From: Octopus vulgaris
Taxonomy: Eukaryota
NCBI GenBank assembly: GCA_951406725.2
Contig: OX597820.1
Span: 25,916,001-25,980,000 of the forward strand
DNA: 64,000 nt
Reading direction: 5' to 3'
Positions 33,301 to 55,750 of the stretch are shown piece by piece. Position 1 is the first letter of the stretch. Each line of letters begins with the position of its first letter. The notes under the pieces were generated by a model, which was given only the letters and a program-made list of their open reading frames with translations, searched no databases and was not told the DNA's origin. The position numbers and the translations under genes were made by a program.

Positions 33301-36300
33301 GTGTTTTATTTTTCCCTACATCCTGTGATGCACCTGGACACATCATCAATGATATTTCCTGGAGTCATTAGGAGTTTTGGGTTTTTCAACATCAGATACC
33401 TTCATCCAAGCAATTAGCACTACCCTGATAGCACTTCCCCTTCAAGGACTCACAACCTTGGCTACCTCCACAGCTAACCTGATGGCCTTTTCTCTACTTG
33501 CCCCTGTGGTACCAAGCATGCTGTAGGCTCTGAAGAGGGACTCTCCTGAAAACCCTAGATGGAATCAAACCTTGCTTGTCACCCTTTCCTTTGCAATAAC
33601 TGCACATGTTCAGCATATTTTCTCCTCCACTCCTCATTGGTCTCCAGTAGAAGAGGTTAGCCCAAGATCAATAATTACCCATGCCAACATTTTATTGTAT
33701 CACACAATTTCAGGGTCATATCTGAAGCCTAAAATAGGGATAACAAGAGCAGTAAAATACTGACTAGTGCAAAAAAAAAAAAAAAATGTTACTTCTGAGA
33801 TTCAAGTATGGAAGACAACTTCAGATATGGAAGGCCAGAACTAGACAAAATTAGATTTATTTGGTCAGTATAAGGTAAGAATCCCAGTCAAGTACATTGT
33901 GTTTCTATTATTATTGTTGACTTCATCTAGAAGTTTATTGTTGTTGAACACAATCTCTTGGTACTGGTTTGACCTCTCTGTCTTTATGTTAAAGATAAGT
34001 AGGGTCACCTCGTGTGCTTGGATATACAGTACATTATCTAATACAACAACTTACTATTCCAGTGAAGTTATCACCCAGTATTCTTGAAATATTTTTTATA
34101 AGTGACAGCTACCCATTAGTTCTAATGGTGGTGGTTGCTTGGTTGCATGTTAACTCATATAATCTATGACCAAAGGTATCCTAACTGTAACCGTCCCGTC
34201 TTTTTAGAGGTAAACATCATTTTTAAACATCCATGCATTGGACAAAGTTTATTAAGGTAGATTTTCTACAGCTGGATGCCCTTCCTGTCACCAGCCCTCA
34301 CTGTTTTCAAGCAAAGTAATATTTCCCTGTGGCCAGATATGTCTATGCAGAATATTGGAAATGAATGATACAGCTTGTATGACAATGAATACACATCTAT
34401 TATGTTGTCAAGAGAAGGTGATGATAAGATACACACACTCAAACATATACACACACATATATGATGAACTTTGTCCAATTTCCATCTACCAAATCTACTC
34501 ACAAGGCATAGGTTGGCCTAGGGACATGAAAGAATACACTTGCCCAAGGTGCCCTCAATGGGACTGAACCTGAAACCATGTGGTCACAAAGCAAGCTTCT
34601 TAACCACACGGCCATGCCTGTGCCTATAAAAATAGAATAAAATTTGTACAAAAGTTCTTTGCAATCTAAAGTAGTTTATGATGATAATGTGAAAAAGTTT
34701 TGCTTTGTGACAGAATATGTGAACTATGATTTCTTGAGTACATGTAAACCTGAAAAATTATCAAGATAATTTTGTCAAGTATCTCATGGCTCCTAAAAAT
34801 AATTTGAATTTAGAAAAAAAAGATTAGATTATCTGAAGTATCCACTTTAAATAGTGCATGGCGTCAATGAACAAATTCTGTTTTTGCACATTTTGAATAT
34901 GCACAGAATGGGTATATATATACTAAGCAACAAACTAAGGAAAGGAATCCTTCAAAGTGGTGCGTAAAACATCCAATTCATTGGTACATCAGTTGAATAC
35001 CACGTAAATATGGGTATAATATGGTGACTCAGGCACTTCGGCCGTTCGGACTTAGCTTGAATATAAATTTAGTAAAGTGAACATGTATTTGCAAGCTCAT
35101 TTTAATTTCTGCCAACATTCAAGTATGTAATTGAAGCCCATAACTTGGGCTCCTTTCATTGAGCCTGGTCACAGTTAATTTTTTTTTTTGTTCAGCATCT
35201 GGCAGTCATTTTAGAGATGCCCTGTGTCAAAAAATATCATTTGTAGCAGACGTTCTCTCGACATTGCTCACACATGCCTGACTTGGGCTCAGAAGTTATA
35301 GCCTAAGTTGTTATTTATATTTATAAAAATTAAAAGTAATTCAAATGCAATGTTTTCTTCAAACAATAAATTTCTATAGAGATTAGGATTTAAATTCCAA
35401 TCTATGAAAAGTTTACGTTCTACAATTTTCTTAAAGGAATGAAAAATTATCCAACAACTCAGGCTAAGACAAATGAGATTGCAAGATGTAAAAGACGAAC
35501 TAGCATCTCTTGTCAAGAGTACAAGCGACAACCAGATTGCTGATGTTTGTTGTGCACTATGCTGTCTTTATTTGATAACAGTTATTCTGTGCATCTGTGC
35601 ATAATGATCAGTTGTGTTTTGCAAGGTAGCTTTATTTTTACCCTGAATGGAGAAAGACATAGTGCTAGATATAAAAAAAAATAAGCCATTTGGGGCTAGA
35701 AATATTGTGGAAAAACATCAAATTCTTCAAGCAGGCATATGTCTTATGCAAAATCTGTGAAGAGACCAAGTGACGAAATCTGTGACGAGCCCAAGTGAAG
35801 CTGATGACCTGACGTCATCTCTGGTGTATATATATATATTAGGTCATCTCATAGATAATGGGGTTTTTTATACTTTGTTTATTTTTCGAAATTAAGATAA
35901 ACAAAGTTCTTTTTTAATCTAAAATATACTCTCCCTCATTTTCTACACTGCTCTTCCATCTATCTTGTAGACTTTCAAGGCCCCTCCTGCCAAAATTCAC
36001 TTGTCCATGACATATCTCCAGTACTGTTCTGAACTTGTCTACAGAATTCATATTTTTGCCATCCAAATGATTTCGAAGACAGCAGAATAAATGATAATCA
36101 CATGGGGCAATGTCCAACGAATACGGTGGGTGGGGCATCGTTTCGCATTCAAAATGCTCCAGCTTTAGGAATGTCATCCTCGCTGTATGTGGCCGAGCAT
36201 TATCCTGATGGAATAACACCTTTCAGTTTGGAACCAAAGATGGCCGTTTTTCTTCTAGCACTGACTTAAGCTGCTAAAGCTGCTCACAGTAGATCTCCTT

Positions 36301-39300: not shown

Positions 39301-41467
39301 AGCTTACCAGCCCCAGTCAAACCCATGCCAACATGGACAACAGACGTTAAATGATGATGATGAATCTAAATGCTAAAGGATAAGTGTCTTTCACAGGACA
39401 TTACAAAAACAATTAGTGATGTAAGAAAACCAGTTCTGATTGAGAACTGAAAACATAGTGACAGACTTGAACACATAACAATGAAATGTCTTATGTAGGT
39501 CTCTCCAAAAACCTAATACAAGCCTCGTATAACATGACCCTTTTATATTCTTCGATAATGAACCCTGAGACTTTATGGGAGAAAAGGATTAGATAAACTC
39601 CTAAGTTTTCGTTACAAATCTTAAAAAACAAAAGAAAAAGGAACAAAGAAACTTTTATACATCTGGACGATTGAATAACGATCTGGGTTTCCTAACAATT
39701 TTTTTAACAGAAAAATTAATGAAATCCATTATAAATGTGAAAAAAAAATTAATGATCCGTAATTAAGTGCGAGTTGTCTACCTTTAGGTTAAATAGCTAA
39801 CCCAGACATTTACAGGCAATTTGTAACGTGAACAAAGTGACATTTAATGACTAACAAGAGATACAAAACCGGGTGATTTGCCGACGATTCTAAGTACTTG
39901 TCATTACCAACAACATGAATTTGCATAGTTTTTAAAGTTCACCATCTCATTGAGAAGTTATGTTTAACCAGACGTCAACCCCGACTTGGCAACCCTACAA
40001 TCAAAGGTGGTCCAGTCAGACCAAAACAGTCTTTTTTTTAATGAGATTATACTGCCCAATGTATTTCTTATTTAAAACAGTACGAATATGATTTGAGGAT
40101 AATTTGGCTGCTATTTCTTGCAGATCGACAGAATATGTATAATAGGGGTGAAGGACCCACCATCAACATGGAAATAACCCTCAAATTAAATTCTCTTAAA
40201 ATCTATATAAAAAGACCTTAAGACAAAAACAGTAATTTAACATACGTTTCATAGCAAGTAAAGATAAAATTAAAGATCCGCTATTTTACTCAGTACAAAT
40301 GGACCATAACAAGTTCTTATGCACCCGAAATCTACTCCGGGTGCTAACAATGTTCACTACTCTTGGCGTAGAGACACCGAAGATGTTTCAGAAACGAATG
40401 TTAAAAGTGGGTGGTTATTACATCTACATAATTAAAGATGGAATTTAGAGATCTTATTTTAAAGTCGCTGCGGTTAGGATTGAAGGAGTAAAACAAGTTT
40501 AGTTAAAGGCGACCATTACCATCTATCTTCTTTTTATTGAAGATGTATAGACAACAAAATTTAACGACTACGAATGGTGGATTAAAAGAACCGTGGGAAA
40601 ATGCTGGTAGTTTAATAGCTCCAGAATTTACGTTGTGCGTGCAAATCACGCCAGGATCAACTTTGTCTTCCATATTTCCTGGGCCGGTAAAATAAAGTGC
40701 TGCGAATGATTTGATATTTCTACGAAGCATCCTAGATATAAATGTAATTATAGCACAAAGCGAGAAGACGAAACTAGGTCGACAGTTGGATATTTAATTA
40801 AATTAAATAATTATTATTATTATAGCGAACAGAAATACTGAGGCGTGATGCTAATGCCCTTCCGAATGGCACTAATAACAACAATAATAAAGCAATTTCT
40901 GAAATTAGGTACTAGCATGACATGGGATAAAAATTAAAAAGAAACTATACTGCCAACGTTTACGCCTTTTGATGCGTTTGGCAAGGCCGTCTTAACAGCG
41001 TTAAAGGTTCGTGGACAACTCAGCGCACTGGGCCTTATTTATTTGTTTATTGACAGCAAGCTACAGCATACACAAAATAAAGTTAGACCTCCGTGAGGCC
41101 TCGGACAACTGTCCAGGTGCCCGTGTCTAAAGATGGGTACTGGTCTTAGGAATATTTTTTTTTAAATCAGTAACTATTTGTTAAAGTATATCGAAACAAA
41201 CAAACCGAGAATTGCTATAAGTACATTACGATAATTGAAAATCATTTATAAATAAATATAAGAAATCAATGAAATATTACAAAGAAACATAAGAATCATA
41301 AAGGGTTGAGTGCTATAAATGTAAAAGAGTATTTAAAATTTACTGTATAAAAACATAAAAAACTTTGATAAAATCATATTACCAGGGAAGAAGACTGCAT
41401 CGGGTTTATCATAGCTCTCAGAGCAAATTGATTTTTTATCGGCGCTTGTTGGTGCGAAAGAAGACAT
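13548..41467 (-). CDS. xylA: Class II xylose isomerase, 15 coding exons, 1392 nt CDS, 463 aa
   Basis: Manually spliced minus-strand exons all have GT..AG boundaries and matching phases, giving MSSFAPTS...FFPGIEKIPF...[12 protein letters not shown]...DPFG...CFHDRDIAPEG...FWGGREG...[16 protein letters not shown]...[12 protein letters not shown]...GSIDSN...GWDTDEFP...[13 protein letters not shown]...[11 protein letters not shown]...SSGQQE...IKQ*. These are the signature motifs of class II xylose isomerases. Confidence 0.96.
14080..14408. mobile_element. Old MITE-like element with ~90-bp diverged inverted termini
   Basis: ctcattgtgagaatgcata...gacagacaaaa pairs with ttttgtctgtc...tatgcagtctcacaatgag. 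Confidence 0.7.
14942..15150. repeat. MITE-like element with internal perfect 17-bp hairpin
   Basis: ttttatgtcctttatat (14957-14973) pairs with atataaaggacataaaa (14998-15014); weak outer inverted ends. Confidence 0.55.
15407..15481 (-). CDS. xylA: xylose isomerase exon 14 ([25 protein letters not shown])
   Basis: CTACAG acceptor, GTAAGT donor, 75 nt. Confidence 0.94.
15775..16242 (+). mobile_element. RTE 3'-UTR-type repeat with internal ~60-bp tandem array and (GAT)n tail
   Basis: About four copies of cgtggccattgccagcctc...ggcacgtaaaaagcaccatccga, then ggagtggttggcgttaggaagggcatccagc...aaacgatgatgatg. Confidence 0.75.
16246..16384. repeat. Imperfect ~57-bp-arm hairpin
   Basis: ...catacacagccacatgcaaatgccttgcaac pairs with gttgcaaggcatttgtgtgtggctgtatg... 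Confidence 0.75.
17441..17520 (-). CDS. xylA: xylose isomerase exon 13 ([16 protein letters not shown]...VK)
   Basis: TTCAG acceptor, GTAAGG donor, 80 nt. Confidence 0.94.
17555..17685. mobile_element. 131-bp hairpin-containing insertion with 16-bp target-site duplication
   Basis: aggttttatttgtttt at 17539-17554 and 17686-17701; internal inverted repeat 17594-17684. Confidence 0.7.
18904..19006 (-). CDS. xylA: xylose isomerase exon 12 ([23 protein letters not shown]...SHI)
   Basis: TTTCAG acceptor, weak GTGTGT donor, 103 nt; NFDxKxRR motif. Confidence 0.93.
19325..20100 (+). mobile_element. RTE-type LINE 3' fragment with (GAT)n tail
   Basis: Decayed [24 protein letters not shown]...[15 protein letters not shown], then the 3' UTR shared by many short copies in the window. 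Confidence 0.75.
20392..20497 (-). CDS. xylA: xylose isomerase exon 11 ([24 protein letters not shown]...MK)
   Basis: TTGCAG acceptor, GTAAGC donor, 106 nt; visible in ORF 20371..20562(-). Confidence 0.96.
20950..21253 (-). mobile_element. CR1/L2-type LINE 3' fragment
   Basis: Minus strand reads [19 protein letters not shown]...SFK, typical of the CR1 ORF2 C-terminus, then a short UTR and ATT-rich tail. Confidence 0.7.
21717..21787 (-). CDS. xylA: xylose isomerase exon 10 ([23 protein letters not shown])
   Basis: CTCAG acceptor, GTAAGT donor, 71 nt; E-x-x-H metal ligands. Confidence 0.95.
23183..23238 (-). CDS. xylA: xylose isomerase exon 9 ([18 protein letters not shown])
   Basis: TTTGCAG acceptor, GTAATC donor, 56 nt; visible inside ORF 23015..23332(-). 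Confidence 0.93.
23508..23739 (-). mobile_element. tRNA-derived SINE family B with 16-bp TSD
   Basis: Core gcctttcatcctttcggggtcaattaaataagtaccag; TSD tatgatggtaacatac at 23492-23507 and 23740-23755. Confidence 0.85.
24062..24145 (-). CDS. xylA: xylose isomerase exon 8 (YKEKIG...[14 protein letters not shown])
   Basis: TTTTAG acceptor, GTGAGT donor, 84 nt; metal-binding EPKP motif. Confidence 0.95.
24640..25170 (-). mobile_element. RTE-type LINE ORF2 C-terminal fragment
   Basis: ORF 24650..24970(-): [17 protein letters not shown]....GRKSKGRP. Confidence 0.7.
25271..25366 (-). CDS. xylA: xylose isomerase exon 7 ([14 protein letters not shown]...MAV)
   Basis: AAG acceptor, GTAATT donor, 96 nt; WGGREG motif. 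Confidence 0.95.
26696..26805 (-). CDS. xylA: xylose isomerase exon 6 ([23 protein letters not shown]...ENF)
   Basis: TTTTAG acceptor, GTAGGT donor, 110 nt. Confidence 0.95.
27778..28040. mobile_element. Old MITE-like inverted repeat (~90-bp diverged arms)
   Basis: tttcattactataat..atagaacatgtcta..ttagccaacactgtgttatga pairs with tcatagcacacaatattggctaa..tagatatgttctat..attatagcaatgaaa. Confidence 0.65.
28722..28859 (-). CDS. xylA: xylose isomerase exon 5 (DIAPEG...[12 protein letters not shown])
   Basis: CAG acceptor, GTAAGT donor, 138 nt. Confidence 0.95.
30577..30718 (-). CDS. xylA: xylose isomerase exon 4 (ADPFG...WCFHDR)
   Basis: TAG acceptor, GTATAA donor, 142 nt; contains the catalytic His of FHDRD. 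Confidence 0.95.
32455..32932 (-). mobile_element. Dong/R4-like LINE 3' fragment (restriction-like endonuclease end) within (TAA)n
   Basis: [30 protein letters not shown]....[10 protein letters not shown]; TAA repeats on both sides. Confidence 0.75.
33034..33106 (-). CDS. xylA: xylose isomerase exon 3 ([24 protein letters not shown])
   Basis: TAG acceptor, GTCAGT donor, 73 nt; WLRF..WHTF motif. Confidence 0.95.
33320..33720 (-). mobile_element. Decayed Hero/R2-group LINE 3' fragment
   Basis: Minus strand reads [26 protein letters not shown], followed by a UTR ...aatgactccaggaaatatcattgatgatgtgtcc; family assigned from recalled similarity. Confidence 0.45.
35839..36939 (-). mobile_element. 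Decayed mariner (DD34D) transposon in xylose isomerase intron 2
   Basis: Imperfect TIRs ttaggtcatctcatagataatg / cattgtttatgggatgacccaa in TA context; transposase remnants MEVTKEHI..., [33 protein letters not shown] with stops and an internal deletion. Confidence 0.9.
35914..36752 (-). pseudogene. mariner transposase pseudogene
   Basis: In-frame stops in the N-terminal HTH part; only the C-terminal 101-aa ORF 35914..36219 stays open. Confidence 0.85.
37009..37085 (-). CDS. xylA: xylose isomerase exon 2 ([26 protein letters not shown])
   Basis: TTCAG acceptor, GTAAAT donor, 77 nt; FKHYNP motif. Confidence 0.92.
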
Positions 41468-45854: not shown

Positions 45855-46081
45855 TATTTCTTTATTGCCCACAAGAGGCTAAACATAGAGGGGGCAAACA
45901 AGGACAGACAAAGGATTAAGTCGATTGCATCGACCCCAGTGCGTAACTGGTACTTAATTTATCGACCCCGAAAGGATGAAAGGGAAAGTCAACCTCGGCG
46001 GAATTTGAACTCAGAACATAACGGCAGATGAAATACTGCTAAGCATTTCACCTGGCGTGCTAACGTTTCTGCCAGTTCGCA
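45855..46081 (-). mobile_element. SINE family B nested in a family A SINE, 18-bp TSD
   Basis: gggtttctttcagtttct at 45837-45854 and 46082-46099. Confidence 0.85.
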
Positions 46082-46799: not shown

Positions 46800-46848
<49 letters not shown>

Positions 46849-46856
46849 TGTATATA

Positions 46857-46905
<49 letters not shown>

Positions 46906-46916
46906 TATATAGAAGG

Positions 46917-46967
46917 AGCTTCTACAGGACTAGAACTGTTTCATTCAAGAGAAATCTTCAGGAAGCT
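46917..46967 (-). ncRNA. Type I hammerhead ribozyme motif (intact GUA site)
   Basis: Minus strand AGCUUC-CUGAAGA-U/UUC ucuu GAA/U-GAAA-CAG uucuaguc CUG-UA-GAAGCU: stem I 6 bp, canonical core, short stem II, stem III, GUA triplet. Confidence 0.75.
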
Positions 46968-47392
46968 AGTTAACAAGAATTGTATTGGCATTTATACATT
47001 TAGGCAGGTTTAAAGGGGTGTTGGTGGGGGACTTTTTGGGGGTAGGCATAGCGCAAAGTATCATACTTGGGGGAGTGGTCAAGGAGTCAGGGTTAAATTA
47101 GATAGAAGAATAAATAAAAAAATAAATAAATAAATAAAAAAATAAAAAATAAAATATATATATATATAAAAAAAGGGGAAATAGAGTTTTAGGTAAATAA
47201 GGAGATTCTCACTTATACCTATGCACATATGTATACATATATACACACACACACAAACATATATACATATACATACACACATACATACACACACATATAT
47301 ATATACATATATATACACTTACACGTTGATTCGTTAGCTACTGCACGCATTTTTTTTCTCTCCTTCTTTCTGTGTTTTTCTCTCTCTGTGTA

Positions 47393-47430
47393 TCTTTCTG
47401 TTGAAGAGCGTAGGCTCGAAACGTTAAAGA
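47393..47430 (+). ncRNA. Hammerhead-like motif with deviant core inside a 204-bp insertion
   Basis: UCUUU-CUGUUGA-A-GAGC guag GCUC-GAAA-CG-UU-AAAGA: stems I and II and palindromic ACGU present, but A6 is U and there is an extra A. Confidence 0.4.
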
Positions 47431-47721
47431 CTTGTTTTATTTATATTTCCTGAGCGCCATACTAATACAATTGTTCGTTTGTTTTCCACCTGCCTTCGTC
47501 TTTTGTTTATTTTCATAAAGCTTCCCGTTATACATATCTACACATACACATATATGTATACATATACACACAGAAAAATTTATATACACATACACACACA
47601 TACTCACATACACGCATACACACACATATATCCACACACACACATGCACACACAGCAGCACATTAGTCCCTATATACACATATATACACATACACACATA
47701 TATACACACACATACATACAT

Positions 47722-47761
<40 letters not shown>

Positions 47762-48008
47762 GTGTACCTATGCTTACCTCCACATACACACATATATATA
47801 CACATACAAGTACAGACCCATTCCCTAATTTTAATTTTATTATCTTCAGTTTATTACTTTTGTTATCTTTGGCCGCTTGGCCAAGTAATAAACTGAAGAT
47901 AACAAAAGTAATAAACTGAAGATAATAAAATTAAAATTAGGGAATGGGTCTGTATTTGTATGTGTATATATATGTGTGTATGTGGAGGTAAGCATAGGTA
48001 CACATATG

Positions 48009-48041
<33 letters not shown>

Positions 48042-48602
48042 ATGTATGTATGTGTGTATATATATGTGTGTATGTGTATATATGTGTATATAGGGACTAA
48101 TGTGCTGCTGTGTGTGCATGTGTGTGTGTGGATATATGTGTGTGTGTATGCGTGTATGTGAGTATGTGTGTGTATGTGTATATAAATTTTTCTGTGTGTA
48201 TATGTATACATATATGTGTATGTGTAGATATGTATATGTATGTGTAAGTGTATATATATGTATATATATATGTGTGTGTATGTATGTGTGTATGTATATG
48301 TATATATGTTTGTGTGTGTGTGTATATATGTATACATATGTGCATAGGTATAAGTGAGAATCTCCTTATTTACCTAAAACTCTATTTCCCCTTTTTTTAT
48401 ATATATATATATTTTATTTTTTATTTTTTTATTTTTTTATTTATTTATTTTTTTATTTATTCTTCTATCTAATTTAACCCTGACTCCTTGACCACTCCCC
48501 CAAGTATGATACTTTGCGCTATGCCTACCCCCAAAAAGTCCCCCACCAACACCCCTTTAAACCTGCCTAAATGTATAAATGCCAATACAATTCTTGTTAA
48601 CT

Positions 48603-48653
48603 AGCTTCCTGAAGATTTCTCTTGAATGAAACAGTTCTAGTCCTGAAGAAGCT
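48603..48653 (+). ncRNA. Type I hammerhead motif, mirror copy with cleavage triplet GUA changed to GAA
   Basis: Same as the 46917-46967 copy except T->A at 48646 (U16.1). Confidence 0.65.
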
Positions 48654-48739
48654 CCTTCTATATAATAAATTAATTTTACTCTGCTATGTATTGAGTACCT
48701 TATTTACTGTGGTTAACCCCGAATCAACCCGGGACCTAC

Positions 48740-48776
<37 letters not shown>

Positions 48777-50189
48777 TGTATATATGAATGTATTCATATA
48801 CATACACACATACATATGTTTAGTACACACACTCATATACATATGTATGTATGTATGTAGGTAGGTAGGTAGGTAGGTATGTGTGCATGTATGTGTATAT
48901 GTATGTATGTATATGCTTATATATGCTTAATACATTTCTAGAATCTCTTGGGAGAAGTGAGCTGAGAAAGTAGCCGAGCTACATAAAGCACTGCCCAATG
49001 CTTACAGAGGAAGCAACTACACTAAATTGAGCATGTGATGTGAATGTATGATGACTCTATGAATTACCATAAGAAATTACACTGCTTTCAATTAGAAGTG
49101 TTGTTAGGAAAGTCTGGAAGGAAGCTGGTACACAAAACATTGATGACATAACACAGAATTTCAGCACAAATTTTTTTTATCAGTGCCTATAGGACACCAG
49201 TGACAGCAAATCATATGTCCTCAAATCATTATTTTATTCACTTCTCTAATTTATCAGCAACTTTGTCACTTTAATCTTTTGATTAACTTTAAGCTCTATT
49301 AGAGTTTGGACCTATTAAGGTGACAGACAAACAATCATTATTCACCAGAGCAACAAACTTCAGCCACAAACAACAACAACAACAAATGATTGATAGCAAA
49401 CACACAAATATGAATTGACAATTCATACTCGACATGTTCGGATTTTTGTATTTCTGTTGAAATCATATTTACTATTTTGGTGGAATTATTTCAATGGCAG
49501 GTCAGTAATGTTCCTTGTTTAGTTAACAAAGATTTCTTGATGTTGTCATAAGTATTGTTCGGTTATTATCATGATGTTTTCATAAACATATACATGTATG
49601 TTTGTGTGTGTGTATTCCATCTATATAGCTAGCATTATCTCTAACTTTGGGTCAAAATGCATAAGATACAAGTGCAAAATGCATAAGATACAAGTCCAAC
49701 ACACACAACTCCACAAATGTAGAATGAAGTTATGTATATTACAACTAATGAAATATTTTGCATATTATAGAAGTGAGTTAGAAATTGTCTGGTATGTGTC
49801 ACAGAATTTCTTTTTTTTTCATATGCTCAGTCCACCAAACTTTAGAACCTGGCTATGCCTCTGAGTCTCAGGCCTACCAAAGCCTTGTGAAAGGGTTTAG
49901 TAAAAAGAAACTGAAAGAAGCCTATGTATGCACATGTCTGTTTGTGGGGGTGTTTGTATGTAACCTTGTCTAGACATCACATGATGATTGTAAATAAGCA
50001 TTGTCGTCATACAAGCTTGGTTGTTTGTCTCCAGTCTTCCTTGAAAAACATGTCCAGTTATGAGAAAATATTACCTTGCCTGGAAGCAGGTGAGGGAAGG
50101 TGATAGGACGAGCATCCAACCATAAAAAATCTGCCTCAAAAAGTTCCATTTGACTCATGGGAGCATGGAAAAGGTTATGTTAAATGATG

Positions 50190-50621: not shown

Positions 50622-50842
50622 TATTTCTTTACTACCCACAAGGGGCTAAACACAGAGGGGACGAACAAGGACAGGCAAACGTATTAAGTTGATTATATCG
50701 ACCCCCAGTGCGTAACTGGTACTTATTTAATCGACCCCGAAAGGATGAAAGGCAAAGTTGACCTCGGTGGAATTTGAACTCAGAACGTAGTGGCAGATGA
50801 AATACTGCTAAGCATTTCACCCGGCGTGCTAACATTTCTGCT
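50622..50842 (-). mobile_element. SINE family B nested in an older related SINE, 18-bp TSD
   Basis: tcaatagaataaaatacc at 50604-50621 and 50843-50860. Confidence 0.85.
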
Positions 50843-52314: not shown

Positions 52315-53187
<873 letters not shown>

Positions 53188-53559: not shown

Positions 53560-55750
53560 TATATACAAGATAAGAAAATGGAGAAATACATCTAAATCAA
53601 ATATCAATTACCAGATAATACTCAATCACATACTTTATTAAACCACCACATAAGAGACTGTAGGGTTAGATATAAAAGCAGAACAAATCAGTGTACATAA
53701 ATGAATGTACATAAAAAAGTGTACATACATATATATATATATATATGTACACACATACGCACACGCACACAGTCACACACATACACACACGTGCACACGG
53801 ATAAGAGTTGAAATGCTCTTCTCTACTCGGAGACTGAGGCATATGCATTTTGATGCACCAGTGAGATGTATAAATGTGAATAATAAAATTACTTTTCATC
53901 TCTAAACATGCAGTTTGATAGAATGAAAATACACACATGCACACACACATACACACATACACACACACACACATACATGTACATGTGTATGTGTGTGAAG
54001 GTACATGTACAGGTATACATAAGAACATGTACATAACAGCCATCTTCTATTTAGTATTTTGCTGAACAAAAGAAAAACTGGTTTGTGAAAGAAAGAGCAA
54101 GTTTTTCAAAGAATTTTCAGATATTTCAGATTTTAGAAATAAATTCTTGCCATTATTTTAATCATTCCTTTGCTTATAAATCGCTATCACAAACAAAGTA
54201 ACTTTGATCAAAAACCAAATCCTGTTTACTCTGCATTGTCGAAATAAACCCAAATTTTCAATCTGATTTTAGTAGAGTTATTTCCCTTGTTGCTTGCATT
54301 TAAATTTTAAAGATTGGATAGGAGGAATTATTTTTTGTATTAATTACCTGAATTATCAAGTTAATTGGAGTGTTTCAACTTATAAATTATAAATGTGAGG
54401 CCCTACTGTTATTTGTATTTTATAGGCAGAATCCTATCTGAGATGTTTTCCCCTAGTGATATCGTTGTTCTGTTCGCAAAACACAATATAACACCAAATC
54501 ATGTGCAGAATTTTGGGAAACTTCTGCTTATTCTCACAATTCCATCTATGAAGAGCTTTATTATTACTATTCTGTATAACTCCAATTCCTCAATGTTACT
54601 TTTATATTAATTTGGTCATGTAATCAACTGCATCAAATAACTATAGATACAAATGCAGCATCTTAGAAGACTCCATATGGATGTATGTACATGATACTAG
54701 ATTTGTATGTAATACTGGGCTGGATTCATGTTCAGAACTCTTATTTATTTCTAGACAAAGAGCTGTAATGCTCTTTTGCTCTGCAACACTGATGCATGTA
54801 CATGAGCATGTAGAATCAGTGGTAGTAATACAGAGGTGAATATTAAAAGAAATTCTTCTGGGTTGATGAAAATAAGTACCAACTGAGCACCAGGGTCAGT
54901 GTAATGGACTTACTCCCTCCCCAAAATTGCTGGTCTTGCGCTAAAATTTGAAATCAATACTGAAAGCAATTAACCCTTTAGCATTTAAACTGGCTATATC
55001 TGGCCCAAATAATCTATCTTTTTTATATGTTCAAAGTGGCCAGATTCAGCCGCTCTTCCAACGTCATTCAAAAAATAAACAGTCATATCATTGAAATCTT
55101 GAGAGTACAAGATAATGCATAATTAATTCATAACAATGTGAGTAAATAAGCATTACGTTTGACAGAATAATCCAAATGATAAAGTGAGAGGAAGACAGAA
55201 AGTTATCCTCAGAATGTTACAAGTATTTGACCTGGTTCAAGTGCTGAGGGCACTGAAGGGTCAGATGATGATATTAAACAAAGCAATGACAGACGTCTAG
55301 TCTATAGAAGCTCTGTTGTTATAAACAATTTCATTAATATTATATAATGATTCTTATTAGGAGTGAGTACATAATGACAATGTAATGATTATATAATGAG
55401 AAGAGTTCATCAGTGGAAAATGATAGGAAATGAGTGAGTTTAACAATCAAGCATTCATAGAAACTATTGTATATTAAACAGTAGTTCCAGACTATATCAC
55501 TGATATTATTTCACTGACTAAAAAATACAATGTAAAAAAAGGTAAAGACAGAAGGTAGCAGTCAACTGCTGGATTTAGCTTTCTCTTCATGCATGAAAGT
55601 TTTTGATTGGTTGTGTGGTTAAAAAGTCAGCTTGCTAACCACATGGTTTTGGGTTCGTTCCCACTGCATGGCATCTACTGTAGCACAGGGCCAAACAAGG
55701 CTTTGTGAGTGGGTTTGTAAGATGGAAACTGAAAGAAGCACATCAGCTCA

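What the first reader, a model, noticed from the sequence alone, without database searches (positions are those of the whole stretch)
46839..48789. Young 1.77-kb fold-back palindrome with a hammerhead ribozyme at each outer end, flanked by a direct repeat
Seen: arms 46900-47869 and 47896-48670 are near-perfect reverse complements. Each outer end carries the same type I hammerhead motif pointing outward. The right arm continues ~70 bp further (to ~48740) and ends in (TA)n. A 23-nt direct repeat, cacatatacatgtatatatgaat (46839-46861 and 48767-48789), flanks the unit like a target-site duplication. Established: Penelope-like elements carry minimal type I hammerheads in their pseudo-LTRs and often form inverted terminal copies. 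Inference: this is a non-coding, ribozyme-tipped palindromic retroelement inserted in one event. A transcript from either strand could fold into a ~770-bp hairpin. It sits ~5.4 kb upstream of the xylose isomerase start codon.
Basis: partly seen in the sequence, partly recalled or inferred. Interest (0 to 1): 0.85.

Follow-up and report, generated by a model that had tools for sequence, protein, structure and literature searches.

The report
Two-armed Hydra-clade Penelope retrotransposon insertion
The palindrome is a truncated, head-to-head double copy of the end of a protein-coding Penelope-like jumping gene with thousands of copies in this genome, and its one-long-end, one-short-end build, repeated in every clean two-ended copy checked, suggests that two reverse transcriptases likely copy one RNA from two start sites into the two sides of a DNA cut.

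Summary
The palindrome and the 23-nt repeat are real, but this is not a separate non-coding element. It is a 5'-truncated, two-armed insertion of a young Hydra-clade Penelope-like family (713-aa RT+GIY-YIG frame, about 5.5 kb) that targets (TA)n. The two hammerheads differ: the left is intact, the right has a core U-to-A change. The left arm also carries a later 204-nt insertion.

Inverted copies with a tail at one end are published. What I did not find in print is the strictness. One end stops at site B and the other at site A, 70 nt further on, in 38 of 38 position-ordered pairs and 16 of 16 clean ORF-anchored copies; either arm may be longer. The partner arm was nearest or tied in 25 of 29 loci. 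A very common product (526 loci) is a ~200-nt double-hammerhead palindrome that stops at the ribozyme's 5' edge, often behind an extra, cap-like G.

Best reading: two coupled priming events on one RNA. A dead copy here, an informative family. The scan earlier noted similar mini-palindromes in a shark.

The parts
46812..46861 (+). Left copy of the 50-bp target-site duplication ((AT)13.5 plus the 23-nt core 46839-46861)
46862..46899 (.). Extra (AT)n between the duplication and the element end; absent after the right copy of the duplication; origin unknown (reiterative copying by the RT or later slippage)
   Evidence: inference
46900..47880 (-). Left arm: 3' UTR end of the element, ending at site B (no tail)
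46917..46967 (-). Type I hammerhead in the family state (6-bp stem I, 3-bp stem II with U-U at 10.1/11.1, 4-bp stem III, GUA triplet at 46925-46923); cleavage predicted, not shown
47325..47528 (+). Later insertion of another (TA)n-associated repeat family, opposite in sense to the arm, replacing 5 nt; holds a hammerhead-like core near 47395-47435 (untested)
47881..47895 (.). Inversion junction: short snap-back completing a 10-bp palindrome (47876-47885), then a templated copy of nearby arm sequence that makes the 23-bp tandem at 47883-47928
47896..48739 (+). Right arm: same 3' UTR end, ending at site A (with tail)
48603..48653 (+). Hammerhead with a core change T>A at 48646; predicted inactive
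48671..48739 (+). About 70-nt 'tail' between sites B and A; in full-length copies it continues into the 5' leader, with the ATG about 40 nt after site A
48740..48789 (+). Right copy of the target-site duplication

Best explanation
This is a truncated, head-to-head double copy of the 3' end of a Hydra-clade Penelope-like retrotransposon, likely made in one event when the element's enzyme cut both strands of a (TA)n target and two reverse transcriptases copied one RNA, one from site A and one from site B. Shown: family membership, the RT+GIY-YIG frame, (TA)n flanks, two fixed end points 70 nt apart, one of each per insertion, independent arm lengths, and arms that resemble each other more than other copies. 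Inferred: staggered nicks gave the 50-bp duplication; each target 3'-OH paired with the short AU-rich microhomology at A or B; both cDNAs stopped about 0.8 kb in and were end-joined with templated filler. Later the left arm received a second element and the right hammerhead mutated. Inferred for the family: the main transcript is capped and starts at the 5' edge of the hammerhead, so priming on that 5' copy gives two run-off cDNAs that join into the ~200-nt mini-palindrome. Long arms, as here, come from priming on the 3' copy or from a jump to it. Ribozyme cleavage is a minor route. This copy encodes nothing and is probably inert.
For: Family: 40 of 40 scored hits at 99-100% over 271 nt among 1020 candidates; exact A ends 2253, commonest B end 1294. 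ORF upstream of the same arm; intact in 1 of 13 ORF-start copies read (L108); model pLDDT 93, best solved match TERT at E 7e-9. One-tail rule: 38 of 38 outward-facing end pairs within 12 kb on the first 112 Mb of C1 are A/B (P 6e-13 if independent; 0.7 pairs expected by chance). 16 of 16 clean ORF-anchored copies are A/B (9 and 7 each way). 28 of 28 tail-selected copies with a whole inverted hammerhead have B opposite. Arm length: A longer 19, B longer 21, about equal 4 of 44. Partner arm strictly nearest in 22, nearest or tied in 25 of 29 testable loci; this copy 8 differences between arms against 15 to the best of 56 others. Sharp 5' stop: 526 loci joined at the stem I 5' edge against 9 just beyond it, 4 at the cleavage site, 6 joined through stem I. 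The same junction types recur in both subfamilies and both orientations. Seven small partial tandems jump at that same base, and G precedes it at 6 of 8 non-palindromic junctions where the native base is T (picked by hand from 28 rows). Contigs of four public runs end in (AT)n at sites A and B, and three show loose ends at the 5' stop. In vitro, an anole PLE cuts and extends both strands from two internal start sites and does not need hammerhead cleavage (PMC11167929).
Against: No experiment here. Arm likeness could also come from gene conversion or from one dominant source copy; 4 of 29 loci had a closer foreign arm and 15 of 44 could not be tested. Compound loci were set aside before the count of 16: L103 has A at both outer ends (with an internal B end), L131 has B at one end and another repeat over the other, L121 and L136 hold extra ends. 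Only the commonest B variant was listed on C1, so B/B pairs are under-detected. 11 of 40 tail-selected loci showed no inverted arm in the 8.5 kb read. Only 1 of 19 ORF-start copies begins exactly at the proposed start; one has 15 native bases more, one lacks the hammerhead and 16 extend 20 nt or more upstream, which needs read-through RNA or a jump. In vitro, no difference in start site between strands was seen, so coupling is not shown there. The cap reading rests on few junctions and on recalled knowledge. A loose test for target duplications did not beat its control (12 of 77 against 31 of 300); the strict one (7 of 77 against 4 of 600) was defined afterwards.
Confidence: 0.75

Rival explanations
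1. Self-priming or snap-back: one strand folds back at a small palindrome and copies itself (possibly on an antisense RNA, as proposed for rotifer Penelopes), and the endonuclease then resolves the ends, leaving the tail on one side.
For: This junction has a 10-bp palindrome; 4 of 44 long copies are about symmetric; many mini copies have a perfect palindromic centre; it explains matching arms. Proposed in PMC3846280 and PMC8557442.
Against: A cDNA folding back from A cannot give a B arm longer than the A arm, and one from B holds no tail to copy; B is longer in 21 of 44. Most junctions in unique sequence are blunt or share 0-2 nt (that script was unreliable at microsatellite junctions). Of 6 stem-I-joined copies only 1 has the orientation a snap-back from A would give.
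Confidence: 0.12
2. Two separate RNA-protein particles insert at the two sides of one break; arms look alike because one source copy dominates at a time or because inverted repeats convert each other afterwards.
For: Inverted repeats can convert each other (established knowledge, recalled); some neighbours are almost as close as the partner arm; one of 14 informative mini copies has arms with different subfamily marks.
Against: Independent particles would give A/A and B/B ends; none in 38 and 16 clean pairs. Conversion has not removed the 204-nt insert or 7 other differences here.
Confidence: 0.08
3. One reading: a self-contained non-coding palindromic retroelement that is transcribed, trimmed by its two ribozymes and moved as a unit.
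For: It has no ORF; the ~200-nt palindromes are numerous (526) and could in part be re-copied; the family did spawn a 271-nt hammerhead tandem array.
Against: No second copy with this junction or these arm lengths among 44 two-armed loci; the right core is broken; on either strand the sense ribozyme is made last, after its complement; mini junction types recur in both subfamilies, as expected of fresh assembly each time.
Confidence: 0.04
4. Assembly artefact from a fold-back read.
For: Near-perfect inverted arms in a microsatellite-rich region; no spanning long reads were seen.
Against: The arms differ by 3 substitutions, 3 small indels and a 204-nt insert; the ends differ in the family's A/B way; the flanks are not mirrored; hundreds of loci share the plan.
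Confidence: 0.01

Closest known systems
Hydra clade of Penelope-like elements (Craig et al. 2021, PMC8557442), e.g. Hydra-1_Obim, Penelope-13_HM
   Same: RT with C-terminal GIY-YIG; RW(K/R), DKT, CxCx5C linker, CxxC and CxH around E and N; (TA)n target; 3' hammerhead with the U-U core variant; Penelope-13_HM is listed with a 5'-truncated inverted copy.
   Different: A different family from Hydra-1_Obim (other hammerhead and protein, compared by eye). About 5.5 kb against 'generally <3 kb', because 2.5-3.8 kb of microsatellite-rich 3' UTR lie between ORF and hammerhead (29 copies). Tail about 70 nt against 30-40.
PLE inverted pLTR and 'tail' (D. virilis Penelope, A. vaga Pen2a; PMC3846280, PMC2377424, PMC8557442 Fig. 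2 legend)
   Same: Inverted 5'-truncated copy next to the main copy; tail often at one end only; internal promoter in the pLTR.
   Different: Here the rule is counted and strict, the two arms are interchangeable, and the data argue against the published self-priming and EN-resolution readings.
Poseidon of Anolis carolinensis in vitro (Frangieh et al. 2024, PMC11167929)
   Same: Both strands cut and extended; two internal RT start sites bounding the tail; AT-rich target; hammerhead cleavage dispensable.
   Different: There the start sites lie inside the ORF and are said to lack homology to the target. Here they lie before the ATG and each has a short AT microhomology to (TA)n. Coupling of the two sites was not reported in the parts read.
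Animal non-LTR retrozymes (PMC7229834, listing only; bioRxiv 10.64898/2026.07.22.740005)
   Same: Non-coding, type I hammerhead, linked to PLE pLTRs; the 271-nt array on C8 looks like one.
   Different: Retrozymes are head-to-tail tandems; the window's copy is head-to-head and has no tandem units.

Membership tests
EN+ Penelope-like element (family level) | Single ORF with telomerase-like RT and C-terminal GIY-YIG nuclease | tested here: met
   L108 713 aa; YRDD and the nuclease Y, Y-G, R, H, E, N kept in 104 of 104 relatives; best fold match TERT. Pfam gave no RT or GIY-YIG hit on the 492-aa part; PDB by sequence 0 hits. The window copy itself lacks the ORF.
EN+ Penelope-like element (family level) | Partial tandems (pLTR), inverted 5'-truncated copies, tail at one end | tested here: met
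Hydra clade | RWK and DKT motifs; GxKF/Y not conserved | tested here: met
   RWR38-40 (K in 72, R in 31 of 104 relatives) and DKT116-118; no GxKF/Y seen by eye
Hydra clade | CxCx5C linker; CxxC and CxH beside the conserved E and N; no CCHH | tested here: met
   C567, C569, C575; C667, C670; C695, H697 kept in 103-104 of 104; the one Cys inside the GIY-YIG core is kept in only 6
Hydra clade | Hammerhead near the 3' end; (TA)n insertion | tested here: met
   AT runs of 8 nt or more at both ends in 72 of 77 two-armed copies
Hydra clade | Placement in an RT tree with named Hydra sequences | not tested
   Published proteins were seen in part in the supplement and compared by eye only
Hydra clade | Generally short (<3 kb); descriptive, not defining | tested here: not met
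   About 4.8-6.1 kb between hammerheads in ORF-start copies
Type I hammerhead ribozyme | Conserved core and three stems | tested here: met
   Met for the left copy; not met for the right (U16.1 changed). No covariation test: 39 of 39 copies read were identical.
Type I hammerhead ribozyme | Self-cleavage | not testable with these tools
   Indirect hint only: two partial tandems join exactly at the predicted cleavage site (L197, L208)
Non-LTR retrozyme | Head-to-tail tandem units each with a hammerhead | tested here: not met
   The window copy is one inverted pair; met only by the array on C8

The most novel reading that the evidence does not exclude
Penelope-like elements integrate by coupled twin priming. 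One RNA is held by two RT-nuclease subunits that must use different start sites, so every insertion is born as an inverted pair with one tail. The RNA is capped at the hammerhead's 5' edge, so a very common product is a double 'strong-stop' palindrome, and long copies, pLTRs and retrozyme-like arrays arise by jumps from that capped end or by rolling on ribozyme-made circles. The RT may also add (AT)n reiteratively, like telomerase, before committing: 2 of 7 informative sites have 24-40 extra AT bases between duplication and element.
Probability: 0.45. Interest if true: 0.8.

Novelty: new member of a known kind. Interest (0 to 1): 0.55.

Why it matters
How PLEs make their inverted repeats and one-sided tail is named as open in PMC8557442. 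This family is young, has thousands of near-identical ends and one intact ORF that models at pLDDT 93, so it turns that question into direct tests: which strand starts where, on which RNA, and where the transcript begins. It would also explain a class of ~200-nt hairpin repeats that could be filed as MITEs, link them and a retrozyme-like array to one parent, and point to many potential double-stranded RNA sources. The locus itself is probably a dead copy.

Tried and rejected
Rfam: no hammerhead model hit. Strict hammerhead descriptor: 0 hits in the window. Folding short stretches: z between -0.83 and 0.43, uninformative; one constrained energy was off by one base and was redone. Genome search with the 204-nt insert found nothing, probably because very common words are skipped; its family was seen instead in 11 other places of 925 kb held. 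Pfam and PDB sequence searches did not name the ORF. Dimer prediction (residues 1-490, two copies): no answer, score 0.00, alignment not used; no evidence either way. Sequencing runs: no RNA holder listed, all contigs, so nothing on expression, cleavage or RNA ends; the thousand-fold depth step over the hammerhead-tail part is not a copy number and is not used. The BLAST junction caller failed at microsatellite junctions and was replaced by k-mer mapping. The arm test failed for this locus and was redone. Loose target-duplication test not above control. Earlier-findings look-ups by sequence and by place gave nothing. Rejected: template switching as the source of the 204-nt insert (it lies in the opposite sense); cleaved RNA as main template (4 against 526 junctions); microhomology alone as cause of the mini junction (the same 4-base palindrome at the cleavage site and a 6-base one just upstream are hardly used). 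No empty allele or spanning long read could be examined. Eight literature searches listed no paper whose title or abstract start reports the A/B coupling or these mini-palindromes; most listed papers were not opened, and subscription papers (Arkhipova 2006, Cervera and de la Pena 2014) were not seen.

Full report
OBSERVATION. The arms align with 766 matches and 3 mismatches, three indels of 2-4 nt, and a 204-nt block (47325-47528) that only the left arm has. The 23-nt repeat is exact, occurs twice in the window and extends to 50 bp; about 38 nt of extra (AT)n separate its left copy from the element. Both ends carry a type I hammerhead fold with three stems. The left one equals the family sequence. 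The right one has T>A at 48646, the U of the A15.1-U16.1 pair (numbering recalled); 39 of 39 other terminal copies have T and the altered 28-mer occurs 6 times genome-wide. Rfam does not detect the motif; its U-U at 10.1/11.1 is in 14 of 26 Hydra rows of a published table. The xylose isomerase gene is on the minus strand with a candidate start at 41467; nothing ties the insertion to it.

WHAT IT IS. The 271-nt end piece drew 1020 candidates in G000; the 40 scored are 99-100% identical. In 10-kb stretches around 39 of them the same arm continues upstream through a long microsatellite-rich region into an RT+GIY-YIG frame. An ORF-anchored search (38 of 40 hits fetched; two left out as overlapping loci already held) gave the plan: hammerhead, site B, 70-nt tail, site A, ATG, 2.1-kb ORF, 2.5-3.8 kb 3' UTR, hammerhead. 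One of 13 ORF-start copies read has an intact 713-aa frame (L108); many of the others break at the same places, which may be real or assembly error. Its motifs match the Hydra clade as described in PMC8557442 section 11, and its model (pLDDT 93) is closest to telomerase RT. It is not Hydra-1_Obim (by eye). That the host is an octopus-like cephalopod is my recollection from the repeat landscape, not a tool result. The 204-nt insert belongs to another (TA)n-flanked repeat family (11 other places in 925 kb held) and lies in the opposite sense, so it arrived later.

THE ONE-TAIL RULE. Copies end at A (2253 exact) or B (1294 for the commonest form), each joined to (AT)n through a short AT microhomology. 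On the first 112 Mb of C1, 100 A ends and 65 B ends form 38 outward-facing pairs within 12 kb; all 38 are A/B. In the ORF-anchored set 16 of 16 clean two-ended copies are A/B, 9 one way and 7 the other. Four compound loci (L103, L121, L131, L136) and five with an unseen far end (L105, L109, L114, L115, L122) were set aside first; L103 and L131 could be read as exceptions. All 28 tail-selected copies with a whole inverted hammerhead have B opposite, as does the short arm of L048; 11 of 40 showed no second arm. One locus is in both the C1 and tail-selected sets. The tail arm is longer in 19, shorter in 21 and about equal in 4 of 44, which a simple fold-back cannot give. The partner arm is nearest or tied in 25 of 29 testable loci; here 8 differences against 15, and both arms share a variant near the junction that the five other copies shown lack.

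THE MINI PRODUCT AND THE RNA START. Of 30 B ends taken in position order, 19 belong to 155-270-nt palindromes of two hammerheads with A at the other end; 11 had no partner within 1.5 kb, six of which pair with an A end further away. Genome-wide, 526 loci join at the 5' edge of stem I, 9 up to 30 nt wider, 4 at the cleavage site and 6 through stem I; 1948 hammerheads keep native upstream sequence. Junction types recur in both subfamilies and both orientations, and the arms agree in subfamily mark in 13 of 14. Among 59 places where the tail runs on into the leader (17 single loci and one array examined), seven are small partial tandems that jump at that same base and two jump at the predicted cleavage site. 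G precedes the edge at 6 of 8 non-palindromic junctions where the native base is T (I dropped native-like, partner-templated and stem-I rows from 28; five junctions one base later have G in 2). An extra G is the recalled mark of a reverse-transcribed cap, so I infer that the transcript starts there. An internal pLTR promoter is shown for Drosophila Penelope (PMC2377424). Against a single start: only 1 of 19 ORF-start copies begins exactly there. Contigs from four coded runs show the A and B boundaries, three the 5' stop; they say nothing on expression.

TARGET DUPLICATION. Most targets are pure (TA)n and hide it. A loose test gave 12 of 77 against 31 of 300; a stricter one, set afterwards, 7 of 77 against 4 of 600, lengths 14-50 bp. 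In two of the seven, this locus included, 24-40 extra AT bases lie between the duplication and one end; reiterative copying is a guess, later slippage the alternative.

MECHANISM. Shown: structure and counts. Inferred: both strands of (TA)n are nicked with a stagger; two RTs on one RNA prime at A and B; the cDNAs stop independently and are end-joined, here with a short snap-back and a templated copy. This fits the in vitro behaviour of an anole PLE (PMC11167929) and goes beyond it in the coupling. A dimer prediction gave no answer. A transcript across the locus would form about 760 inter-arm pairs and would bury the ribozyme, but no transcript is shown.

LITERATURE SEEN. PMC11167929: parts 1-2 of 4 of the text. 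PMC8557442: outline, passages, sections 11, 12, 15, supplement part 2 of 59 and two term searches in it; the rest of the supplement may hold related families. bioRxiv 10.64898/2026.07.22.740005: part 1 of 5, supplements closed. PMC3846280, PMC2377424, PMC6155905, PMC13282606: passages only. PMC7229834: listing only. Inverted copies and a one-sided tail are in print; the strict coupling, the run-off palindromes and the cap mark were not found in eight searches of an incomplete library.

VERDICT. A new family of a known clade; this copy is an ordinary, probably inert product. The interest lies in the family-wide rule, which makes an open question about PLE integration testable. Interest 0.55.

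Noticed in passing
G000:C8:91475200-91483500 (L193): Two-armed tandem array of a 271-nt unit (hammerhead, tail, ORF start): 5 units one way and about 26 the other, A end left, B end right, units mostly 0-3 differences apart with a ten-unit higher-order repeat; a mini-palindrome abuts its right end. Looks like a retrozyme being born by rolling-circle copying.
   Followed up: partly
L197 (G000:C15:44664138-44664287) and L208: Partial tandems whose junction falls exactly at the predicted hammerhead cleavage site; a hint of cleavage in vivo.
   Followed up: partly
G000, 526 loci, e.g. L168-L182: About 200-nt double-hammerhead palindromes, a very common product of the family.
   Followed up: yes
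window 47325-47528; also L039, L129, L130, L137, L063: A second abundant (TA)n-flanked repeat with a hammerhead-like core and a palindromic stem III; its parent was not found.
   Followed up: partly
L037:5068-7534 (-): A different element with a similar RT frame and a weak GIY-YIG match (E 0.0018) and asparagine-rich stretches, nested in the microsatellite of this family's arm.
   Followed up: no
window 17515-41467 (-): Multi-exon xylose isomerase gene; candidate ATG at 41467, 8 kb upstream of the next exon motif found.
   Followed up: partly
window 45855-46072 and 50622-50841: Two copies (82-92% alike by block) of a short interspersed repeat flank the locus 4.8 kb apart; a similar repeat interrupts L061.
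   Followed up: no
window 35914-36222 (-): 102-aa frame resembling the C-terminus of a mariner transposase (recognised from memory).
   Followed up: no
window 53020-53130 and 53780-53890: A ~110-nt direct duplication flanking a repeat inserted in a (TA)n tract (seen by eye).
   Followed up: no
L033 (G000:C13, around 24.16 Mb): Second case of extra (AT)n (24 nt) between a target duplication and the element end, here at the A end.
   Followed up: partly
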